Below are positions 7,971-39,778 of a stretch of DNA of 64,000 bases, one piece after another. Made by a program: the position numbers and the translations under genes. Each line of letters begins with the position of its first letter. Position 1 is the stretch's first letter. The notes beneath the pieces are model-generated. The model was not told the DNA's origin. It made no database searches and was given only the letters and a program-made list of their open reading frames with translations. Origin of the DNA: Escherichia phage Es2. The DNA is taken from sequence record OR515477.1, one strand, 5' to 3'.

Positions 7971-8469
7971 AACAATACTCCTGTGTTGGAAATAAAATAA
8001 GTTTTCTTTAGGACTATTCAGAAAGAATAGAACAACTGTTACTGTCAATTTCTCAACAAATTAATCGCAAATACTGAAGGGGGGTGGCAACTTCCCCTTT
8101 CACGCTACACTGCCGCTTCACTATACCGCACAAATCCTTGAGGATGGCCGCTAAGCCAGATTTGCTCACCTAATGCTTCATGTACTAGCTCATACTAGGT
8201 GCAGTATACCTTACGTCATCACTTCTCAGAGTTTTTCACTCTTCCCGTCTCACTTCACAACCACCTCACACTAGGTTGCTTCGAGGCCTTACCAGGGTTC
8301 CTACGGGATGTAGATCGCTAAGTATTCTATTAACTATTTGTTTAAAAACTAACACGTAACAGTTAAAACAACCCTTAATGGGGCAGCCTAACTGTTCCGT
8401 ATCGCGGATTGTAAACAAGAAAAATTAGTAAAATCAATTTTTACTAATGTCTCTCAATTCAATATAAAT

Positions 8470-8498
8470 ATTATATCAAGATTTTGGGCATCCTGCAA
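8470..8498 (-). promoter_or_regulatory. early-type sigma70 promoter (minus strand) upstream of helicase leader
   Basis: Reverse complement TTGCAG, 17 bp, TATAAT, then TTTATATTGAATTGAGAG. Confidence 0.55.
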
Positions 8499-8589
8499 GT
8501 AAAATTTTCCAGATGGTGCTATCATTGGTCTTGGGTACGGATAAAACCGAGCCAAAATGACTCGGTAATCGGGGTTCAGCTAATAAAAA

Positions 8590-8982
8590 TCATTCATCAT
8601 TTAATCCCGGAACATAGATCCCAACACGGCTTAATTGTTCTTTAGCTTCTGCGAGAATATCTGGAGTGTACTCCCAAATATCATCTTCCACCCGTAAAAG
8701 ATGGGGTGAACAACCATCATCCGGCACACGACATATGGCCAGACCACGTGGATGGAACAAAGAGAAATTTAGGGCAACAATCAAGCCCATAGCAGACAAT
8801 TCATTCCAATCCAATTCCCGTTCCCCGGCATATCCAGACAGGAAAACACCAATGCAGGGGTCATCTATTTGCTGCTCCGGAAAAGTGAAGGAGGCTTGTC
8901 TTACCCCCAACCAACGTTGTAGTAGCTTCTCCGCACGTCTCACCAAACTAGGGTCAATCTGACGCCAATATACTTGTTCCAT
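8590..8982 (-). CDS. hypothetical protein, paralog of 8992-9420
   Basis: Shares PCIG, W.EL..MGL..ALN..LF.P and G..VPGL blocks with the adjacent ORF. Confidence 0.55.
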   Translation of the reverse strand: MEQVYWRQIDPSLVRRAEKLLQRWLGVRQASFTFPEQQIDDPCIGVFLSGYAGERELDWNELSAMGLIVALNFSLFHPRGLAICRVPDDGCSPHLLRVEDDIWEYTPDILAEAKEQLSRVGIYVPGLNDE

Positions 8983-8991
8983 TCTGCCTCC

Positions 8992-9420
8992 TTAAGCAGT
9001 TAAACCTGGGATCATATACCCGAAACGTCGAAGTTTCTGAATCCCCTCATTTACTTCTTCCGGTGAGTAAGACCAACCATAACGTTCATTAACCTGAAAA
9101 CCAGGAGATTCACTAGTCTTATAGTTAACAACGAGGCGATGCTTAGCAGGCATAAACAGCTTATAGTTTAACGCAAAAACTAAGCCCATTTCATCTAGCT
9201 CTTTCCAGCCCACAATCTCTTCAAGACCATCCTCTACCTGCACAATTAAACCAATACATGGGGCCTCATCAATATCATCTTTAAAAGCAAAGGAGATTTC
9301 GTTATTCTCACACCATATTTTCAAAAAGTTAATAGCCTCATTATACAGGCTAGCCGGGAGAGTACGCCAAAAGTTAACCAAAATTGGGTTAGCTTCTTTA
9401 GAGAATACATTATTGAACAT
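8992..9420 (-). CDS. hypothetical protein, paralog of 8590-8982
   Basis: Tandem paralog; same conserved blocks. Confidence 0.55.
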   Translation of the reverse strand: MFNNVFSKEANPILVNFWRTLPASLYNEAINFLKIWCENNEISFAFKDDIDEAPCIGLIVQVEDGLEEIVGWKELDEMGLVFALNYKLFMPAKHRLVVNYKTSESPGFQVNERYGWSYSPEEVNEGIQKLRRFGYMIPGLTA

Positions 9421-9422
9421 AC

Positions 9423-9929
9423 TTACACCTTAAATTGTTGTAAGGATTTACACATTTCAAGATCTGGGCTAAATTCTAGCATATAGCTAACAGCTTTTAA
9501 ATCTTGAAGATTTACCCCAGTCCTACCATTGACTATAACCGTTGGATACTGGTACATCATAGCACCAGCATCATCCAGCACACACCAATGTTTGAGCTTA
9601 TGCTTTTCAACGAAGCGAAGAACAGAATTACCCCTAGATAATCCACCCCCGGTAAAATCCGTTGTACCAAGAAAACGATCGATAAGACCTAATCCGGTCA
9701 TAATCTGAACGTTCTCCATCTCATTTCTGACAGAGAACCAAGATGATACCCCAACAATCATTATTGAAGAGGGACGAATAAAATCCTGAAAAGCCTTGAG
9801 AAGTGGCTTAAAAACCCAATCACTTCCGAAGAAGATCTTTTCATCATCCGGCGCATGGTGGTGCGAGATGCTCGAATTGAGCACCCCATCAATATCTAGA
9901 AAAATAACTGGAGTATTACTTATTTCCAT
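9423..9929 (-). CDS. HAD-superfamily phosphatase-like protein
   Basis: N-terminal FLDIDGVLN (DxDG[TV] HAD motif I). Confidence 0.55.
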   Translation of the reverse strand: MEISNTPVIFLDIDGVLNSSISHHHAPDDEKIFFGSDWVFKPLLKAFQDFIRPSSIMIVGVSSWFSVRNEMENVQIMTGLGLIDRFLGTTDFTGGGLSRGNSVLRFVEKHKLKHWCVLDDAGAMMYQYPTVIVNGRTGVNLQDLKAVSYMLEFSPDLEMCKSLQQFKV

Positions 9930-10098
9930 TTTTGTTCCTTTCTAAGAACGTATCATACTCAACCGTATCAACATATATGACACCATAGTCATCGGATTTA
10001 TAGTCCATTTCCCACAGCTCACAGCGATAACACCAACTACCATCCGCCCATACAAATATATCATCGGGATGTGTATATACAGATTTAACTATAGACAT
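9916..10098 (-). CDS. hypothetical protein
   Basis: 60 aa ORF overlapping neighbours by a few nt (coupled). Confidence 0.4.
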   Translation of the reverse strand: MSIVKSVYTHPDDIFVWADGSWCYRCELWEMDYKSDDYGVIYVDTVEYDTFLERNKNGNK

Positions 10099-10913
10099 AT
10101 TTGTTTCCCTGGCATATAAGGTCTACCCTCTAAATGAGCTTCCACACGAGCAATAAAATCAGGATCACTGAAAGCATCTACCGCACCTTTACTCCAGTAA
10201 GGGATACCACGTTCTTCCAACTGGTACATCTCACTACGAGTCATACCTTGATAGCCGGGCTCCGCTGCTAGAGCACTATCATAGTAGTTAACAACCATAA
10301 GTTTCGCAGCAGTCAAATTAAGAACAGGAAATAATTCCCAGTAGAAGTTAATTACTTGGTTAGAACAACCAACTACAATAATCATATCTTGACTGGTAAT
10401 ACTGTCAAAAACATTATACATTTCTGTGTATGCAGGAGCATGCTCTCCAAAGAAGATTACATTAGGTTTAACCCATTTATAATCATCTGGATCAATAGAA
10501 TTGTATCCTACGTCAATAATCCGTTTATTGCTACTATTATAGCTATCAGCTACAATAATCTCTTTTAAATATCCGTGAATGTGCAGAATGTCACTATGTG
10601 GAACGCCAGCACGTTCAATAAGGTCATCAACGTTAGTAGTCAAGTTTACTACTTGACCTGGATATTGTTTATACCATTCACCAATACGCAAATGCGCAAG
10701 ATTGGGTTCAACAGTTTTTAGCTCTTCACGACGTTTATTGTAAAATGCGTGAGTTTTATGATAAAAGTTACCACGAAAGGCATGAATATTACATACCTCT
10801 TCTAGATCATAATCATCCCACAATGCCTTACCGCTAGCAGTATCCGTACGGAAGGCTCGTACACCACTTTCAACGCTCAAACCTGCACCACTAATAATAA
10901 TTAATCTACGCAT
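10089..10913 (-). CDS. Sir2-family (sirtuin-like) NAD-dependent protein
   Basis: ISGAGLSVESGVRAFR (GAGIS..SGIP.FR-like), TNVDDLIERAG (TQNID.LH..AG-like) and HIHG motifs. Confidence 0.7.
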   Translation of the reverse strand: MRRLIIISGAGLSVESGVRAFRTDTASGKALWDDYDLEEVCNIHAFRGNFYHKTHAFYNKRREELKTVEPNLAHLRIGEWYKQYPGQVVNLTTNVDDLIERAGVPHSDILHIHGYLKEIIVADSYNSSNKRIIDVGYNSIDPDDYKWVKPNVIFFGEHAPAYTEMYNVFDSITSQDMIIVVGCSNQVINFYWELFPVLNLTAAKLMVVNYYDSALAAEPGYQGMTRSEMYQLEERGIPYWSKGAVDAFSDPDFIARVEAHLEGRPYMPGKQICL

Positions 10914-25147: not shown

Positions 25148-25465
25148 ATGACTTTTCATATTTTGATTGATGATGTGCGTAATCTTCACGGAATGGACAT
25201 TATCATTCGAACCCCAGAAGCCGCTGTAGAGTTTCTGAATAAAACTGATACCACAGGCCATTTCGTTTATATGGATAATGACTTGGCTGTAGATGGTATG
25301 GAAGGTTATCAAATTCTTCGTTTACTCTTAGAATTTGGGCAGAGACCAAAGAAAGTGGTACTAGTAACCTCGAACCCAGTAGCTAAGCAAAATATGCGTA
25401 ATGATTTGCTTGACTTAGGGTATAAAGAAAATCCCAATCGTGTTGAATATGATTGGCAGGAGTAA
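25148..25465 (+). CDS. hypothetical protein
   Basis: 105 aa ORF after promoter 25089-25117. Confidence 0.5.
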   Translation: MTFHILIDDVRNLHGMDIIIRTPEAAVEFLNKTDTTGHFVYMDNDLAVDGMEGYQILRLLLEFGQRPKKVVLVTSNPVAKQNMRNDLLDLGYKENPNRVEYDWQE

Positions 25466-25470
25466 AAAGA

Positions 25471-25920
25471 ATGAAGGCAGCTTTGCTTTTAGTAGCTGCC
25501 CTTACCTTCAGCTTTAGTAGTCAGGCATCGCACGATGCAAAAGAAATAGATTGCATTGCTAAAAATATCTATTTCGAAAGTCGTGGTGAGGGCATAAAGG
25601 GAATGACGGCGATTGCACATGTTACTAAAAACCGTGTAAACTCCGGTAAATTCCCAGATTCCTACTGTAAAGTAGTATATCAGTCTAACCAGTTCTCTTG
25701 GGTATCTAAGAGACCAAAAGTTGATAAAACTGATGAGGCTTGGCAAACCGCTAAGAATTTAGCTAGAGTGATATACTACGTTGATTTACCACAAGATCCT
25801 ACACATGGAGCATTATACTTCCATAGTGGTAAAGATAAACCTTACTGGACAAAGAAATTTAAGAAAACAACTAAGATTAAGGGGCATACATTCTATAAAC
25901 CTGTTGTCACTAAAACTTAA
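25471..25920 (+). CDS. secreted SleB-like cell-wall hydrolase
   Basis: Signal peptide MKAALLLVAALTFSFSSQA then CIAKNIYFESRGE...AHVTKNRV...YCKVVYQSNQFSW (cell-wall hydrolase family signature). Confidence 0.6.
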   Translation: MKAALLLVAALTFSFSSQASHDAKEIDCIAKNIYFESRGEGIKGMTAIAHVTKNRVNSGKFPDSYCKVVYQSNQFSWVSKRPKVDKTDEAWQTAKNLARVIYYVDLPQDPTHGALYFHSGKDKPYWTKKFKKTTKIKGHTFYKPVVTKT

Positions 25921-26601: not shown

Positions 26602-26630
26602 TTGCTAAATGCTTATAAATTCTGTATAAT
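26602..26630 (+). promoter_or_regulatory. early-type sigma70 promoter heading the tRNA/ncRNA cluster
   Basis: AAAAATTCATTTGCTA, 17 bp, TGTATAAT. Confidence 0.6.
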
Positions 26631-26853
26631 ATATTCATAAATTAGGGAACAGCGAGCCGATTACGCTGAGTGCAGAATCCCAACCGGAGCGCATTGAATA
26701 GAGTCGGTGGGTTAGTTGTAAAACTAGTACACAGGGGGCGGCAATCCCGGTTAGTGGCTAGAACGTGTAAAATGAGGCGTCTGAAACCTCTCCCTTAAAC
26801 TCTTCTCTAATTTATAAATAGTGGGGTGTGGAAATCACTTATGTAGTAACACT

Positions 26854-26925
26854 GCCGTCCTAGTATAATTGGTATTATCAAGCCGTAACTGGTGGAAGAT
26901 GTAGGTTCGAATCCTACGGTCGGTA
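26854..26925 (+). tRNA. tRNA-like (isotype undetermined)
   Basis: T-arm GTAGG-TTCGAAT-CCTAC and acceptor GCCGTCC/GGTCGGT, but no clean anticodon arm. Confidence 0.35.
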
Positions 26926-27427
26926 AGAACTGGATAACTGATGCTTTTAACGTAAAAGCTTCCGAGGTTAGTTGCGCACTGCCTAAACCACGCGGTAGTT
27001 GGTTCCAGACTAACCAACCAGTCTGCTGAATAGTTTTATTACGATTTAACTATGTCCAGGCTAAAGAAGAACTTTAGAAAGTATTCTAGGATAGTGAAGT
27101 TCTTTCTCCATATCGGAGTAGTTTTTCAAGCTATCCATAAAGTGGGAAATGCTGGCATGAGAGATGCCACTAATGGTGCACAATAGCACAGGTAATTCGC
27201 GATAACTCCTGTTGAGTAGCAGCAAAAGGCGGGAAGTCATGACCCCAAGCCTAACCGAGTCCTCAATATACCGCAGGACATAACCACTAAGTCACCCTGA
27301 CTTAAACTGGAAAATAATAGACGTTACTGTATTTTGTCTTGAAATACTTAATGAGTGAGACTTATGACTCTCCCGGTATCGTCTGTATTTTTAAGAGTTT
27401 TTACGAGAGTTCTTAAAAATACTTAAA

Positions 27428-27499
27428 CGGGGTGTAGTCTAAGGGAGAGGCAGGAGTCTTCTAAATTCCTTTATGCAGGTTCGAATCCTGTCACCTCGG
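27428..27499 (+). tRNA. tRNA-Arg (anticodon TCT)
   Basis: Acceptor CGGGGTG/CACCTCG, anticodon loop CTTCTAA, T-arm GCAGG-TTCGAAT-CCTGT, CCA encoded. Confidence 0.7.
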
Positions 27500-27536
27500 C
27501 CAATTTTATTAACTGTAGCTAAAACAAAGGAAATAT

Positions 27537-28484
27537 ATGTTTAATACTAAAAATATGAAAGAACTGACTTCTGAGCAAAAAGTAATTCGCACTATTAAAC
27601 GTTGGGGTATTGGTGCTGTAGTTGGTTTAGCAGGTTTAGTTCTAGCTCTTAACTCCTATACCGTTGTTCAAGACGGTACTGTTAAGACCCAGACTTTCTT
27701 GGGTAAAGTTGATCCTAACCCTGTATTGCCGGGCTTTCATATTGTAAATCCTTTTGCTTCTTTTGATACTTTTAGTACTAAAGATATTGCTCTGAAATTA
27801 GATAAACTTCAGGTTCCTAGTCAGGATAAGTTTAAATCCACTGTTGACCTGACTGTTATGTTGCAGTTTGATGGTTCTAAAGCACCGATTAACCGTATTA
27901 ATGCAGGTACTCAGGATCAAGCATTAGACAAATATGTAACTGAAAAATTACTGTCTACTATTCGTGAGTTTGGTAAGTCTGTACCTAAAGCACAAGATTT
28001 ATTTGATGCTAAAATTCAGGCTCAATTGCAAACTGCAATTCAACAGGAAGTTGAAGAGTATGCACGCCCATATGGTTACACAGTTAAGCAGGTGTTTCTT
28101 CAGGATATTACTTTGCCACCGGTAATCATGGAACAGGTACAGAATACCAAAGTTCGTGAAGAACAGGTTAATGCTGCTAAAGCTGAATTAGCTCGTGTTG
28201 AACAGGAAGCACAGCAAAAAGTTAAACAAGCAGAAGCAGATCGTGAAGCTCGCAACAACCAAGCTATTGCTAACGAACGTGACGCAGATGCTAAGCTGTA
28301 TGCAGCTAAGAAAGAAGCTGAAGCTAACGCCGCATTGCAACGTACCATTACTCCTGAGATGATTCACTGGAAGCAACTGGAAGTTGAAATGATTCGTGCT
28401 CAGAAGTATCAGGGTGGTGTACCGCAGACTGTGGTTGGCACTGGCTATGATGGCCAAATGATTATGGATATGCGTAATAAATAA
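27537..28484 (+). CDS. SPFH/band-7 (prohibitin/HflKC-like) membrane protein
   Basis: N-terminal TM (WGIGAVVGLAGLVLAL), SPFH-like core, Ala/Gln/Glu-rich coiled-coil C-terminus. Confidence 0.6.
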   Translation: MFNTKNMKELTSEQKVIRTIKRWGIGAVVGLAGLVLALNSYTVVQDGTVKTQTFLGKVDPNPVLPGFHIVNPFASFDTFSTKDIALKLDKLQVPSQDKFKSTVDLTVMLQFDGSKAPINRINAGTQDQALDKYVTEKLLSTIREFGKSVPKAQDLFDAKIQAQLQTAIQQEVEEYARPYGYTVKQVFLQDITLPPVIMEQVQNTKVREEQVNAAKAELARVEQEAQQKVKQAEADREARNNQAIANERDADAKLYAAKKEAEANAALQRTITPEMIHWKQLEVEMIRAQKYQGGVPQTVVGTGYDGQMIMDMRNK

Positions 28485-28509
28485 TACCCGCATGTAACAT
28501 CTGAAGTAA

Positions 28510-28545
28510 GCCCTGCGTTTCCTGGAGAGCGCAGGGCTTTTCTAT
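28510..28545 (+). terminator. rho-independent terminator
   Basis: GCCCTGCG...CGCAGGGC hairpin followed by TTTTC. Confidence 0.6.
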
Positions 28546-28580
28546 ATAATGTATTTGTAAATCTAACTAGGAGATCAAAT

Positions 28581-29099
28581 ATGAATGTTGATGAGCTAAC
28601 ACAGCACCTCTTATCTAGAGGATTTGATACAGATAAATATCATTGCTGGTTAAGTCCAGCAGGGTGGCTAACAGTCCCGTTGTATGATTTCTCTGGGATG
28701 TTGAGGGGCTATCAAACTTATAATCCTTCTGCTCCAAAAGGTCATGGTAAGTGTCCCTTTGAAGCTAAATATTTTACCTATTCTACTACCCAGTGTGTAT
28801 GGGGATTAGAAACTCTCAATGGAGATGAAAAAGTAGTATTGGTCGCTGAATCTGTATTTAAGGCAGTTGCGTTACATAATGCTGGTTATCCAGCCCTAGC
28901 AATGTTGGGTTCTTCTCCAGGAAAAGCGTTATTAAAGCAACTGAAATTATTACCTTTTAAATTGGTAGCTGTCGGGGATAACGATCCTGCGGGTGAAAAA
29001 TTTGCTAGAAAATTAAACGGCTTTGTTTCTCCTGTAGATGTGGATGAGATGTCTACCGAAAACTTGAAAAATTTTCTTGCTATGAAGCTAAATTTCTAA
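28581..29099 (+). CDS. hypothetical protein
   Basis: 172 aa ORF with AGGAG RBS. Confidence 0.5.
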   Translation: MNVDELTQHLLSRGFDTDKYHCWLSPAGWLTVPLYDFSGMLRGYQTYNPSAPKGHGKCPFEAKYFTYSTTQCVWGLETLNGDEKVVLVAESVFKAVALHNAGYPALAMLGSSPGKALLKQLKLLPFKLVAVGDNDPAGEKFARKLNGFVSPVDVDEMSTENLKNFLAMKLNF

Positions 29100-29120: not shown

Positions 29121-29206
29121 GGAAGAATAGCATAATGGTATTGCAGCAGATTGCTAATCTGTCGGTTTGAAATATAGCCTTGTGGGTTCGATTCCCACTT
29201 CTTCCG
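29121..29206 (+). tRNA. tRNA-Ser (anticodon GCT)
   Basis: Acceptor GGAAGAA/TTCTTCC, anticodon loop TTGCTAA, long variable arm, T-arm GTGGG-TTCGATT-CCCAC, CCA encoded. Confidence 0.75.
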
Positions 29207-29215
29207 CCAGATTTT

Positions 29216-29290
29216 GGTTCTCAAGCTCATATGGTATGAGCACCCGGCTCATAACCGGAAGGTACGTAGGTTCGAATCCTCGGGGAGCCA
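29216..29290 (+). tRNA. tRNA-Met/Ile2 (anticodon CAT)
   Basis: Acceptor GGTTCTC/GGGAGCC, anticodon loop CTCATAA, TTCGAAT T-loop (T-stem imperfect), CCA encoded. Confidence 0.6.
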
Positions 29291-37836: not shown

Positions 37837-37909
37837 AGTTAGTTGGCAGAGTGGTTATGCACCTCCTTCATACGGAGCGACTACAGTGGTTCAAATCCAC
37901 TACTAACTA
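37837..37909 (+). tRNA. tRNA-Met/Ile2 (anticodon CAT)
   Basis: Acceptor AGTTAGT/ACTAACT, anticodon loop TTCATAC, T-arm AGTGG-TTCAAAT-CCACT, CCA encoded. Confidence 0.65.
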
Positions 37910-37949
37910 CCATTAAAAGAGCTAGAGATAGCTAACTTTAGGAGCAGCT

Positions 37950-38144
37950 ATGTTAACAATTAAAATAATGTCAGCCAAGAATGGGGAACAGATTCATACA
38001 GGCAAAAGTGTAAGCTTTAATCCTAGAAATAAAAGACTGGCTATAGTTGGAGTAGACCAAGCCATCTTTTTAAAAGAAGATGAAGTAGCATATGTCATGA
38101 ACCAAACTGGTAAGACAGTTTCCGTATACTATGGAAAAGTATAA
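37950..38144 (+). CDS. hypothetical protein
   Basis: 64 aa ORF, AGGAG RBS. Confidence 0.45.
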   Translation: MLTIKIMSAKNGEQIHTGKSVSFNPRNKRLAIVGVDQAIFLKEDEVAYVMNQTGKTVSVYYGKV

Positions 38145-38186
38145 AGAATAAATAGCTGAGCCAAATTCTAACATCGGGGAGATCTA

Positions 38187-38555
38187 ATGAAAGCATATCA
38201 AAACCTTAAATCTGGCGTAATTAATATTGTTCATAATAATCAGATCATTCAGCTATATTCCGATAATGGTGAACTTAAACAGAAAGTTCTAGTTGAAGAT
38301 CTAGAAGGTATCACACCTCACTTTGACCCTGAGGCCTTTCGCATTGTAGATGTGGAAGTGGTTCCTCAAATCGAAGGTGGTCAGCACCTAAATGTCAATG
38401 TATTAAGCCGTGATCAGCTTTTGGATGCGCAGAAACATCCTGAAAAATACCCTCAATTAACTATCCGTGTTTCAGGGTACGCTGTTCGATTTAATGCACT
38501 GACTCGTGAACAACAGAACGACGTTATTAGTCGTACATTTACTCAGGCGATGTAA
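38187..38555 (+). CDS. grcA: autonomous glycyl-radical cofactor-like protein (GrcA/YfiD-like)
   Basis: C-terminal [11 protein letters not shown]...[37 protein letters not shown] closely matches the GrcA/PFL glycyl-radical domain as recalled from memory (RVSGY motif). Confidence 0.7.
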
Positions 38556-38636
38556 TGGGGTTTGGGTACGATTTCTCCCAGCTACGCAAGGTAGTCGAGC
38601 AAACTCCGTTTATCTCCCAAGTTTTAGGAGAAATGT

Positions 38637-38951
38637 GTGGATCGAGCATTAAGACGTCATCACAGGCAACGTGTAAAGAACAACCGCAAGAAGTACTGGA
38701 CAGTCTTTCCACATGAAGAAAGCCCTAAGCGGTTAGGTATTATCACTACTACTCCTTGCATCTGTTCTTGTTGGATGTGTGGGAACCCTCGCAAGTACTA
38801 TAAGAATAGTAAAGCAGGCATGAAAACCTCGGAGATCAGGAAAATGGAAGCGATGATTATGGGCATCTCAAATGATGAATTTGATGGCTTTGTAGGATTC
38901 GGAGAAGGAATCAGCTCAGGCTGTTTAGAAGATGAACGCCCCGACCTGTAA
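38637..38951 (+). CDS. hypothetical Cys-rich basic protein
   Basis: 104 aa ORF, CICSCWMC motif; start codon uncertain. Confidence 0.4.
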   Translation: MDRALRRHHRQRVKNNRKKYWTVFPHEESPKRLGIITTTPCICSCWMCGNPRKYYKNSKAGMKTSEIRKMEAMIMGISNDEFDGFVGFGEGISSGCLEDERPDL

Positions 38952-38962
38952 TTAATAACAAA

Positions 38963-38997
38963 CCCCAGCTATTGAATAAGTAGTCTGGGGTTTTTCT
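38963..38997 (+). terminator. rho-independent terminator
   Basis: CCCCAG...CTGGGG hairpin followed by TTTTTCT. Confidence 0.6.
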
Positions 38998-39072
38998 GTA
39001 TAAAGGTACATAATATATGTATAATAAAATTCATCCACATTAGGTTAATTTAAAAGACTTAATGGAGGTAAT

Positions 39073-39420
39073 ATGAGCCGTACTTATCGTAGACAATCTG
39101 GTGATCAGTGGTGGAAGTCTAAAGAACAATTCTCTCAAGAATATTCTTTCCTCAAAGAAAATGGCTACTGGATTCGTGTTATTTATGCCAAATCCTGGGA
39201 CGACATCAAAAAAGAAATGAAGGAAGCAACCATTCGTAATGAGAAAAAGGATGGTTATAACTGGAATTCCATTAGTAAGAATGTTAAGTGGCATTCTAAT
39301 AAAATGGTTCGTCAAGGGAATCGTCAAGAACTCCACCGCGTGATGAAAGATCCAGAAAATTACGACTATAATCGCGACCATGACATGCGTAAGCGTGGAT
39401 TATGGTGGTGCTATGACTAA
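39073..39420 (+). CDS. hypothetical protein
   Basis: 115 aa, Trp/Lys-rich, GGAGG RBS. Confidence 0.5.
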   Translation: MSRTYRRQSGDQWWKSKEQFSQEYSFLKENGYWIRVIYAKSWDDIKKEMKEATIRNEKKDGYNWNSISKNVKWHSNKMVRQGNRQELHRVMKDPENYDYNRDHDMRKRGLWWCYD

Positions 39421-39437
39421 ATTCTGAAATAATTCAT

Positions 39438-39466
39438 TTGCTAAACCTCTCTTTTCTTGCTATAAT
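39438..39466 (+). promoter_or_regulatory. early-type sigma70 promoter
   Basis: TTGCTA, 17 bp, TATAAT. Confidence 0.6.
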
Positions 39467-39496
39467 ATATTTATAAATTGATAAGAGAGGTTTGAA

Positions 39497-39778
39497 ATGA
39501 AAAATCGCCTAGACTGTGCCATTCATGTTCTTGAACATGATGTTACGGGAACCTGTATGTCTTACCACGAAGCAGGTCGTTTAATTAAAGAACGCGTGGC
39601 AGATGTGTGCGGATTGAAGATTACTGCTGAGGAAGCTGATGATCTTTTAGGTCAAGCACTGGAGAAAACCGAAATGTTCCTCTGCGATTCTTGTTCTTGG
39701 TGGTGTGAAGCTCACGAACGTTCTTTCAACGATTATGATGTATGTCGTGATTGTAGTGGGGAGGATAAAGATGAATAA
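39497..39778 (+). CDS. hypothetical Cys-rich protein
   Basis: 93 aa ORF after promoter 39438-39466; CDSCSWWC...CRDC motifs. Confidence 0.5.
   Translation: MKNRLDCAIHVLEHDVTGTCMSYHEAGRLIKERVADVCGLKITAEEADDLLGQALEKTEMFLCDSCSWWCEAHERSFNDYDVCRDCSGEDKDE

What the first reader, a model, noticed from the sequence alone, without database searches (positions are those of the whole stretch)
27537..28484. SPFH/band-7 membrane protein encoded inside the tRNA cluster
A 315-aa protein with an N-terminal TM helix, SPFH-like core and long Ala/Gln/Glu-rich coiled coil sits between tRNA-Arg and tRNA-Ser and is followed by a strong terminator. Host HflK/HflC (SPFH proteins) regulate FtsH, and a phage SPFH protein could modulate host membrane proteolysis or superinfection exclusion.
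Basis: partly seen in the sequence, partly recalled or inferred. Interest (0 to 1): 0.55.

Follow-up and report, generated by a model that had tools for sequence, protein, structure and literature searches.

The report
Phage T5-type SPFH membrane scaffold gene
The gene is real and does encode a membrane-anchored SPFH (band-7/prohibitin-like) protein, but it is the already-annotated T5.080 gene found in almost all T5-like phages and many T4-like phages, and nobody yet knows what it does.

Summary
The ORF at 27537-28484 (+) encodes 315 aa with one N-terminal TM helix. It matches Pfam Band_7 at 64.2 bits (cut-off 23.6). It has a roughly 95-residue helical coiled-coil region and a conserved C-terminal tail, and a 13-bp hairpin with a T-tract follows the stop codon.

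The window is a T5-like phage (Tequintavirus), and the gene is the ortholog of T5.080. GenBank records label that gene 'SPFH/band 7 domain-containing protein' or, wrongly, 'lipoprotein'; the protein has no cysteine. About 430 of about 440 Markadamsvirinae records carry it. dN/dS is about 0.03. RB43-, Slopek- and Aeromonas-type T4-like phages carry it at 60-83% amino-acid identity, and Morganella and Providencia chromosomes at 56-60%.

The AlphaFold model matches cage-forming SPFH subunits (erlin, prohibitin, HflK/C, stomatin, QmcA) over its full length. The positive-inside rule puts the SPFH domain in the periplasm, as in HflK/C. It is not an HflK or HflC ortholog: it is a single gene, no NCBIfam model matches, and no NfeD or FtsH gene is linked to it.

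My best reading is an early-expressed, self-assembling, periplasm-facing inner-membrane scaffold whose client is unknown. The FtsH and superinfection-exclusion ideas remain untested. I rate it as already known and of modest interest.

The parts
26602..26630 (+). Sigma-70 promoter-like site (TTGCTA-17-TATAAT). This is the nearest upstream + strand promoter and the positional equivalent of T5 promoter 'P 16-17'.
   Evidence: 10 of 12 consensus matches. The T5 annotation places P16-17 just past the end of T5.081. No + strand promoter or terminator match lies between this site and the ORF.
26640..27427 (+). Non-coding leader, largely homologous to the T5 'RNAX' stable RNA. It contains a degenerate tRNA-like element at 26854-26925.
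   Evidence: T5 annotation; about 91-92% nucleotide identity to T5 over most of the stretch; Rfam tRNA hit at 35.5 bits.
27428..27502 (+). tRNA-Arg(TCT), ending 34 nt upstream of the ORF and probably co-transcribed with it.
   Evidence: ARAGORN; Rfam 49.3 bits.
27527..27532 (+). Ribosome-binding site AAGGAA.
   Evidence: Read directly from the sequence.
27537..28484 (+). SPFH/band-7 protein gene, 315 aa, ortholog of T5.080.
27603..27668 (+). Codons for the single N-terminal TM helix (about aa 23-44). It is preceded by a K/R-rich cytoplasmic tail (aa 1-22; 6 K/R against 2 D/E).
   Evidence: Hydropathy and flank charges; AF2 helix at aa 12-38.
27657..28112 (+). SPFH alpha/beta domain (about aa 41-192).
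   Evidence: Pfam Band_7 over aa 52-225; AF2 secondary structure; Foldseek hits to SPFH structures.
28119..28406 (+). Ala/Glu/Gln/Lys-rich coiled-coil helices CC1 (aa 195-270) and CC2 (aa 273-290).
   Evidence: these helices align to the wall helices of erlin, PHB and HflK/C cage subunits.
28407..28481 (+). Conserved C-terminal tail (Y291, G293, V295, P296, T298, G301, G306, D311 and R313 are nearly invariant). It is disordered in the monomer model and is a candidate cap or oligomerisation segment.
   Evidence: Alignment A1; pLDDT below 50 for aa 293-315.
28508..28545 (+). Intrinsic-terminator-like hairpin (13-bp stem) plus T-tract. Its 3' arm carries the T5 nick-site consensus GA|GCGC at 28528|28529.
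   Evidence: The same hairpin is present in T5 with a C-to-T change that gives a G-U pair. The nick site is mapped from the T5 annotation.

Best explanation
[quoted passage not shown] It is probably transcribed from the P16-17-type promoter as one unit (RNAX-like leader, tRNA-Arg, SPFH mRNA, hairpin terminator). The protein inserts into the host inner membrane through a single N-terminal signal-anchor helix, with the short basic N-terminus in the cytoplasm and the SPFH domain, coiled coil and tail in the periplasm. Like every structurally characterised full-length SPFH protein, it most likely self-assembles into a homo-oligomeric ring or dome. The SPFH domains would sit on the membrane, the coiled coils would form the wall, and the conserved C-terminal tail would close or stabilise the top. 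Such a ring would fence off a patch of inner membrane during infection. What the fence encloses is unknown. The best candidates are a membrane quality-control protease such as FtsH, or membrane-integrity and lysis-timing components. SHOWN: the ORF, family membership, domain architecture, fold, purifying selection, phyletic distribution, absence of a lipobox, and absence of a paralog or NfeD partner nearby. INFERRED: transcription unit, topology, oligomeric cage, and client.
For: Family and architecture: Band_7 scores 64.2 bits against a cut-off of 23.6. The AF2 model (pLDDT 77.6) shows a TM helix, an alpha/beta domain, a 76-aa helix, an 18-aa helix and a disordered tail. Foldseek finds full-length matches (aligned over about 270-310 columns, prob 1.00) to erlin1/2 (3.7e-15), PHB1/2 (8e-14), HflK/C (1.6e-12), stomatin and QmcA cage subunits. 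PDB sequence searches hit QmcA (7e-8), PHB2 (4e-5) and HflC (5.5e-4).
Topology: N-terminal flanks carry 103 K/R against 56 in the C-terminal flanks across 34 family members, and 6 against 2 in the window protein.
Functional constraint: dN/dS is 0.027-0.030 against Elw and T5. Alignment A1 has 52 invariant columns across 30 sequences down to 56% identity, and the C-terminal tail is conserved too.
Prevalence: 429 phage records carry the gene at 90% identity or more, against about 440 Markadamsvirinae records counted with a core gene.
Homo-oligomer rather than K/C pair: there is only one SPFH gene in the 64-kb window.
Expression: there is no promoter or terminator match between the 26602 promoter and the ORF, and a hairpin follows the stop codon. 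The T5 annotation has the same layout. The tRNA region belongs to the early gene cluster (PMC8624392).
Against: No oligomer was modelled or observed. The topology rests only on the positive-inside rule, and E. coli QmcA, the best sequence match in the PDB, faces the cytoplasm (my own recollection of Chiba et al. 2006). The gene is dispensable at least in the laboratory: Epseptimavirus NG_S8 keeps only the last 42 codons. No partner gene is conserved next to it in phages or bacteria, so nothing points to a specific client. SPFH peptides were reported in virion preparations of Vi01-like and Eneladus phages, which could hint at a different location, although counts were very low.
Confidence: 0.6

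Rival explanations
1. HflK/C mimic. The phage SPFH ring captures host FtsH hexamers, or displaces HflK/C from them, on the periplasmic side. This would retune FtsH proteolysis of membrane or regulatory substrates in the phage's favour, for example by protecting phage inner-membrane proteins or altering LpxC or sigma-32 turnover.
For: The predicted type-II, periplasm-facing topology is the same as HflK/C. The top fold matches are the extracytoplasmic SPFH families that partner with membrane-protein degradation machines: erlin, prohibitin and HflK/C. HflK/C-FtsH is a periplasm-extending megacomplex (PMC12048511 abstract).
Against: It is not an HflK or HflC ortholog. NCBIfam gives no hit. The family profile matches only an approximately 80-residue stretch of HflC at 22 bits and does not match HflK at all. 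It is a single gene. FtsH is never a neighbour in 38 bacterial loci; the recurrent roughly 630-700-aa neighbour turned out to be ABC transporters. The phage is strictly lytic, so the classical Hfl/CII logic does not apply.
Confidence: 0.2
2. Membrane-integrity or lysis-timing factor. The scaffold stabilises the energised inner membrane, or restrains holin raft formation, so that the long, high-burst infection is not ended prematurely by the phage's own holin, by envelope stress, or by membrane-depolarising abortive-infection effectors.
For: In Pseudotevenvirus phages (GAP161, RB43, and RB16 according to the GAP161 notes) the gene lies directly downstream of rI (the lysis-inhibition antiholin) and rI.-1. 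In Aeromonas phage 44RR it lies about 3 kb from rI. It is found mainly in large virulent phages: T5-like, T4-like, N4-like, Vi01-like and jumbo. Bacterial SPFH proteins are tied to membrane stress responses (PMC8581546 and the bioRxiv SamI abstract).
Against: The tk-rI-nrdC interval is a plastic region in T4-like genomes (own knowledge), so the adjacency may be accidental. In T5-likes the gene is not next to the lysis genes. There is no direct evidence.
Confidence: 0.2
3. Superinfection exclusion. The periplasmic cage blocks inner-membrane passage of DNA from secondary phages.
For: It is early-expressed and membrane-located, and it is dispensable. Phages often place exclusion genes among accessory genes.
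Against: T5 already has Llp for receptor blocking (PMC8624392). No known Sie protein is an SPFH protein, to my knowledge. dN/dS of 0.03 and 60-80% identity across unrelated phage families fit a housekeeping-like interaction better than an arms-race gene. PADLOC gives no hit.
Confidence: 0.07
4. It is a lipoprotein, as labelled by PHROG_200 and many RefSeq records, including T5.080 itself.
For: The database label only.
Against: The protein has no cysteine and therefore no lipobox. 30 of the 34 family members checked also have no Cys.
Confidence: 0.01

Closest known systems
Phage T5 gene T5.080 (YP_006908.1) and its orthologs in Tequintavirus and Epseptimavirus
   Same: It has the same length (315 aa) and the same position: tRNA-Arg, then the gene, then the hairpin carrying the nick site. 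Nucleotide identity is 91% and amino-acid identity about 98%. Some GenBank records already call it 'SPFH/band 7 domain-containing protein'.
   Different: The window lacks the 1.9-kb T5.077-079 block and the annotated bidirectional terminator that follow the gene in T5 and in most relatives.
T4-like phage SPFH proteins (RB43 ORF139c, 44RR ORF098c, Aeh1 ORF064c; Nolan et al. 2006, PMC1524935)
   Same: They belong to the same subfamily, at 60-83% amino-acid identity over the SPFH domain, coiled coil and tail, with the same architecture.
   Different: They have different N-terminal anchors and a different genomic setting (the tk-rI-nrdC region rather than the tRNA region). Synonymous sites are saturated, so the exchange between phage families is old.
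E. coli HflK/HflC (FtsH modulators)
   Same: They share the SPFH fold, an N-terminal TM helix, the predicted periplasmic orientation, a coiled-coil wall and a C-terminal cap segment. Foldseek E-values are 1e-12 to 1e-9.
   Different: Identity is below 20%. There is no NCBIfam equivalog hit. It is a single gene instead of a K/C pair. There is no evidence of FtsH binding.
E. coli QmcA (with NfeD partner YbbJ)
   Same: It is the best sequence match among solved structures (E 7e-8 with the profile; 20% identity over 286 aligned columns).
   Different: There is no NfeD gene beside the phage gene or its bacterial homologs. QmcA faces the cytoplasm (own knowledge), whereas the phage protein is predicted to face the periplasm.
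Eukaryotic prohibitins and erlins
   Same: They are the top full-length structural matches. They have a type-II anchor with the SPFH domain on the non-cytosolic side, and some annotators call the phage protein 'prohibitin family' or 'PHB domain'.
   Different: Identity is only 16-20%. Prohibitin and erlin complexes are usually hetero-oligomeric and work with m-AAA proteases or ERAD ligases that have no counterpart encoded here.
Chromosomal SPFH genes of Morganella and Providencia and of methylotrophic and marine Gammaproteobacteria
   Same: They have the same subfamily architecture. Morganellaceae copies are 56-60% identical and environmental Gammaproteobacteria copies 31-42%.
   Different: They sit in stable chromosomal synteny, not in prophages. 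In a rough NJ tree the Morganellaceae copies nest inside the phage radiation. None of 5,426 complete E. coli genomes has a detectable copy.

Membership tests
SPFH / Band 7 superfamily (Pfam PF01145) | Profile match above the curated gathering score | tested here: met
   64.2 bits against a cut-off of 23.6, E 2e-17, aa 52-225 covering profile positions 13-176 of 176.
SPFH / Band 7 superfamily (Pfam PF01145) | Alpha/beta SPFH fold followed by a long coiled-coil helix | tested here: met
   AF2 model with pLDDT 77.6. Foldseek prob 1.00 with full-length alignments to erlin, PHB, HflK/C, stomatin, QmcA and flotillin.
SPFH / Band 7 superfamily (Pfam PF01145) | Membrane attachment at the N-terminus | tested here: met
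   A single hydrophobic segment at about aa 23-44 (KD mean 1.81 for the best 19-residue window, aa 25-43), conserved in position across 34 homologs.
SPFH / Band 7 superfamily (Pfam PF01145) | Assembly into a large ring or cage oligomer | not testable with these tools
   Only monomer prediction is available. The conserved tail, disordered in the monomer model, is compatible with oligomerisation but proves nothing.
HflK/HflC (FtsH modulator pair) | Sequence orthology to HflK or HflC | tested here: not met
   NCBIfam gives 0 families. The profile search against the PDB gives HflC at only 22 bits over an approximately 80-residue stretch and does not list HflK at E <= 1.
HflK/HflC (FtsH modulator pair) | Two paralogous adjacent genes forming a hetero-oligomer | tested here: not met
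   The family HMM finds only one ORF in the 64-kb window. The gene is also single in T4-like and bacterial loci.
HflK/HflC (FtsH modulator pair) | N-in, C-out topology with a periplasmic SPFH domain | tested here: inconclusive
   The positive-inside bias favours it (103 K/R in N flanks against 56 in C flanks; 6 against 2 in the window protein). This is a prediction only.
HflK/HflC (FtsH modulator pair) | Physical association with FtsH | not testable with these tools
   This needs pull-down, crosslinking or complex prediction. FtsH is not a genomic neighbour anywhere I looked.
SPFH-NfeD operon pairs (QmcA-YbbJ, stomatin-STOPP) | Adjacent NfeD-family partner gene | tested here: not met
   The neighbours are a Toprim ORF, a GatB/YqeY-like ORF by PHROG label, a cell-wall hydrolase and tRNAs. 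Bacterial neighbours are unrelated enzymes and transporters. Only immediate neighbours were scanned.
Bacterial lipoproteins (the label carried by PHROG_200, RefSeq and T5.080) | Lipobox with an invariant Cys after the signal peptide | tested here: not met
   The protein has zero cysteines and no lipobox pattern. 30 of 34 homologs also have zero Cys.
Known anti-phage defence proteins (PADLOC) | Match to a defence-system model | tested here: not met
   0 families at E <= 0.1.

The most novel reading that the evidence does not exclude
The phage builds its own periplasm-facing SPFH cage on the host inner membrane. The cage would capture a specific host or phage membrane machine, with FtsH or the holin as the most attractive candidates, and so reprogramme membrane proteolysis or lysis timing. 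Because the module works in many hosts, it would have been exchanged between unrelated virulent phage families (T5-like, T4-like) and even captured by Morganellaceae chromosomes.
Probability: 0.15. Interest if true: 0.6.

Novelty: already known. Interest (0 to 1): 0.3.

Why it matters
SPFH proteins are annotated in many large virulent phages (T5-, T4-, N4- and Vi01-like phages and jumbo phages) and in giant viruses. The papers I could find state that their role in phages is unknown. The T5 family copy is a good entry point for several reasons. It is a single gene, nearly universal in its subfamily, and under very strong purifying selection. It is naturally deleted in at least one isolate, and it sits in a genetically tractable phage and host. 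If it proved to corral FtsH or the lysis machinery, that would show how a virus uses a membrane-microdomain scaffold. It would also give a minimal homo-oligomeric model for SPFH cage function. As a genome-scan finding, however, it adds nothing that the databases do not already hold, apart from showing that the common 'lipoprotein' label is wrong.

Tried and rejected
- NCBIfam and PADLOC scans gave no hit, so there is no equivalog name and no defence-system link.
- Literature searches used these terms: SPFH with T5; prohibitin with T5-like; 'T5.080'; SPFH with HflK and anti-phage; SPFH with holin; and T5 RNA-seq. None found a functional study. The papers only list the domain or call its role unclear.
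- I looked for a conserved partner gene. In 38 bacterial loci, a recurrent 630-700-aa neighbour looked like it might be FtsH, but it turned out to be ABC-F and C39-ABC exporters. Other neighbours are a racemase, a 2-thiouracil desulfurase, ADH-like enzymes, FolC, an acyl-CoA ligase and, in Methylococcaceae, an overlapping NDH-2-like gene. Nothing was consistent.
- I looked for a second SPFH paralog in the window that could form a K/C-like pair. There is none.
- I looked for a copy in E. coli genomes or prophages. There is none among 5,426 complete genomes at blastn sensitivity.
- The 'lipoprotein' label is rejected because the protein has no Cys.
- I treat adjacency to rI in T4-like phages as weak evidence only, because that interval is a plasticity region.
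- The papers on T5 mutagenesis and on phage phiR2-01 do not mention this gene.

Full report
**1. What is there**

The window is a T5-like phage. A 3-kb stretch around the finding is 95-96% identical to Escherichia phages vB_EcoD-Elw, JLBYU40 and slur09 (Demerecviridae, Tequintavirus), and 469 phage records match it.

The ORF at 27537-28484 (+) exists exactly as described: ATG start, 315 aa, with an AAGGAA ribosome-binding site 5 nt upstream. tRNA-Arg(TCT) ends 34 nt upstream of it, at 27428-27502. tRNA-Ser(GCT) lies at 29121-29209. One correction is needed: a 172-aa Toprim-only ORF (28581-29099, = T5.076, labelled 'DNA primase') lies between the SPFH gene and tRNA-Ser.

The 'strong terminator' is a 13-bp stem (7 G-C pairs) with a 6-nt loop, followed by TTTTCT, at 28508-28545. 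Its predicted free energy is -25.3 kcal/mol, z = -3.35 against shuffled sequence. T5 has the same hairpin, with a C-to-T change that keeps the pair as G-U.

**2. Identity of the protein**

- Pfam Band_7 (PF01145) matches aa 52-225 at 64.2 bits against a gathering score of 23.6.
- PHROG_200 matches at 1.8e-85. Its label, 'lipoprotein', is also used for T5.080 and many RefSeq copies. The label is wrong: the protein has no cysteine and no lipobox, and 30 of 34 homologs have none either.
- Hydropathy shows a single TM segment at about aa 23-44.
- An AlphaFold2 model built from a 30-sequence alignment has mean pLDDT 77.6. It shows a TM helix (aa 12-38), an alpha/beta domain (aa 41-192), a 76-residue helix (aa 195-270), a second helix (aa 273-290) and a low-confidence tail (aa 293-315).
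- Foldseek against the PDB aligns essentially the whole chain to subunits of every solved SPFH cage: erlin1/2 (3.7e-15), prohibitin 1/2 (8e-14), HflK/C (1.6e-12), stomatin, QmcA and flotillin. The major vault protein also appears.
- At the sequence level, the closest solved relatives are QmcA (E 7e-8 with the family profile), prohibitin-2 (4e-5) and an approximately 80-residue stretch of HflC (5.5e-4). HflK is not found.
- NCBIfam, which carries the HflK and HflC equivalog models, gives nothing.

The protein is therefore a genuine SPFH scaffold subunit of a distinct subfamily, not an HflK or HflC ortholog.

**3. The gene is already known as a gene**

In the T5 reference genome the gene is T5.080 (YP_006908.1). 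It sits in the same place, and its annotation notes similarity to Aeh1 ORF064c and 44RR ORF098c and a single transmembrane domain. The SPFH/band 7 domain in the T4-like phages RB43, 44RR and Aeh1 was tabulated in 2006 (PMC1524935). Several GenBank records of T5-like phages name the gene 'SPFH domain-containing protein' or 'band 7 domain-containing protein'.

I found no paper on the function of any phage SPFH protein. Those that mention one say the role is unclear (PMC13239085; PMC7760394) or only list a few peptides in virion preparations (PMC10892097).

**4. Distribution and selection**

- tblastn finds the protein in 739 phage records, 429 of them at 90% identity or more. A core replication protein from the window finds about 440 records at 80% identity or more. 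Nearly all Markadamsvirinae therefore carry the gene.
- One Epseptimavirus, NG_S8, retains only the last 42 codons, so the gene can be lost.
- dN/dS is 0.030 against T5 and 0.027 against Elw.
- Copies at 79-83% amino-acid identity occur in RB43-, GAP161- and Slopek-type T4-like phages, and copies at about 60-64% in Aeromonas T4-like phages. Synonymous sites between these and the T5-like copy are saturated. The sharing between unrelated phage families is therefore old, and the protein has been kept under tight constraint.
- A profile search of 1.84 billion cluster representatives gives only 2,172 hits at E <= 1e-3 and 89 at E <= 1e-30. This is a narrow subfamily compared with the ubiquity of SPFH proteins.
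- Structural relatives are spread over many viruses, including giant viruses.

**5. Cellular relatives**

A scan of one genome per species finds chromosomal copies in Providencia and Morganella (56-60% identity) in conserved, non-prophage synteny. More distant copies (31-42%) occur in Methylococcaceae, Methylophagaceae and other environmental Proteobacteria.

In a rough neighbour-joining tree without support values, the Morganellaceae copies nest inside the phage radiation and the environmental bacterial copies are basal. This fits a bacterial origin followed by spread among phages and re-capture by Morganellaceae, but the tree is only indicative.

No complete E. coli genome (5,426 genomes) has a detectable copy.

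Neighbours are heterogeneous: a racemase, a 2-thiouracil desulfurase, an ADH-like enzyme, a bacteriocin-export HlyD/ABC pair, and the trp-accD-folC operon. In five Methylococcaceae loci an overlapping NDH-2-like flavoprotein gene follows the SPFH gene. NfeD and FtsH are never adjacent. A recurrent neighbour of roughly 630-700 aa that I first suspected was FtsH is a set of ABC transporters.

**6. Context in phages**

In the T5-likes, the nearest + strand promoter match upstream is TTGCTA-17-TATAAT at 26602-26630, the position of T5's annotated promoter P16-17. Between it and the ORF lie about 790 nt homologous to T5's 'RNAX' stable RNA, then tRNA-Arg, with no intervening promoter or terminator match. 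I infer a single transcription unit (RNAX-like leader, tRNA-Arg, SPFH mRNA, hairpin) in which the mRNA 5' end is produced by tRNA processing. The tRNA region belongs to the early gene class (PMC8624392).

In Pseudotevenvirus phages the gene lies immediately downstream of rI (the lysis-inhibition regulator) and rI.-1, within the tk-nrdC interval. In 44RR it is about 3 kb from rI. That interval is a plasticity hotspot in T4-like genomes (own knowledge), so I treat the adjacency as a weak hint only.

**7. How it most likely works**

Shown:
- SPFH membership;
- the canonical layout of TM helix, SPFH domain, CC1, CC2 and tail;
- strong constraint over the whole length, including the tail (Y291, G293, V295, P296, T298, G301, G306, D311 and R313 are nearly invariant);
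- a single gene with no paralog and no NfeD partner nearby.

Inferred:
- (a) Topology N-in, C-out. The N-terminal flank of the window protein has 6 K/R against 2 in the C-terminal flank, and across 34 homologs the totals are 103 against 56. This places the SPFH domain in the periplasm, as in HflK/C.
- (b) Homo-oligomeric ring or dome assembly, because all solved full-length SPFH proteins form such assemblies (PMC12624060 abstract; the structures listed). The conserved tail, disordered in the monomer model, would then be the cap or oligomerisation element.
- (c) Function as a fence around a patch of inner membrane during the early and middle phases of infection.

The client is not identified. 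I give 0.6 to this scaffold model as a whole. For the nature of the client I give about 0.2 to FtsH-type proteolysis control, about 0.2 to membrane integrity or lysis timing, and under 0.1 to superinfection exclusion. These sub-hypotheses overlap with the main model rather than excluding it.

**8. Verdict**

The structural interpretation is right and the functional speculation is untested. The feature is an already-annotated gene of a known protein superfamily in a well-known phage family. It is not new, but it is a clean and tractable case for the open question of what phage SPFH proteins do. Interest 0.3. The most novel reading not excluded is a phage-built periplasmic SPFH cage that hijacks FtsH or the holin (probability about 0.15, interest 0.6 if true).

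Noticed in passing
window 26854-26925 (+): A tRNA-like element scores 35.5 bits on the Rfam tRNA model (cut-off 29). It has good acceptor, D and T arms (GGTTCGAATCC) but a poor anticodon arm, and ARAGORN does not call it. It lies inside the stretch homologous to T5's annotated 719-nt 'RNAX, stable RNA with unknown functions'.
   Followed up: partly
window 29216-29290 (+): A second tRNA missed by ARAGORN scores 40.3 bits on Rfam, 7 nt after tRNA-Ser. Its position corresponds to tRNA-Met(CAT) of phage Elw and tRNA-Ile2(CAU) of T5. The window therefore has at least 24 tRNA genes rather than 23.
   Followed up: partly
window 28538-28547 (junction): Compared with T5, Elw and all 20 closest relatives listed, the window lacks about 1.9 kb (T5 37841-39727). 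The missing block holds promoter P12, the opposite-strand genes T5.077-T5.079 and the annotated 'efficient bidirectional terminator'. The two BLAST pieces overlap by 10 nt at the junction, which suggests deletion between short repeats. A hybrid promoter-like site (TGGAGA-16-TATAAT, 28523-28550) now overlaps the hairpin.
   Followed up: partly
window 28528|28529 (+): T5's annotated 'major DNA single-chain interruption' (consensus Pu|GCGC) maps exactly onto GA|GCGC in the 3' arm of the terminator hairpin downstream of the SPFH gene. A genome nick site and a transcription terminator therefore share one hairpin.
   Followed up: partly
window 28581-29099 (+): A 172-aa Toprim-only protein (T5.076) is labelled 'DNA primase', although it has only a Toprim domain (Pfam Toprim_2, 25 bits). 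It gives a weak PADLOC hit to the DnaG-like part of a DRT defence reverse transcriptase (E 1.6e-6).
   Followed up: no
window 25453-25920 (+): A SleB-type cell-wall hydrolase (Pfam Hydrolase_2, 89.5 bits) has an apparent N-terminal signal peptide. It equals T5.083, which is labelled 'endolysin' although T5's lysis endolysin is a different gene (own knowledge). This is another envelope-directed early protein about 1.6 kb upstream of the SPFH gene.
   Followed up: no
L005 3166-4831, L003 3158-4831, L004 3914-8363: In T4-like phages the SPFH gene sits directly after rI (lysis-inhibition regulator) and rI.-1 in GAP161 and RB43, or about 3 kb from rI in 44RR, inside the tk-nrdC interval.
   Followed up: partly
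L022, L023, L026, L027, L030 (about 8001-10150): In Methylococcaceae chromosomes the homologous SPFH gene overlaps the start of an NDH-2-like pyridine-nucleotide-disulphide oxidoreductase gene by about 14 nt, which suggests translational coupling in an operon.
   Followed up: partly
L007 (NZ_JBHSCL010000010.1, 178,077 bp): A contig filed under Flagellimonas marina carries a 73%-identical SPFH gene, and its protein is nearly identical to that of Escherichia phage UPEC03. It looks like a T4-like phage genome in a bacterial assembly. A 174-kb Klebsiella 'plasmid' record carrying the gene likewise looks like a T4-like phage.
   Followed up: no
L006 3250-3629 (phage NG_S8): A natural deletion in an Epseptimavirus leaves only the last 42 codons of the SPFH gene. 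Two small ORFs take its place between tRNA-Arg and the Toprim-gene region.
   Followed up: partly
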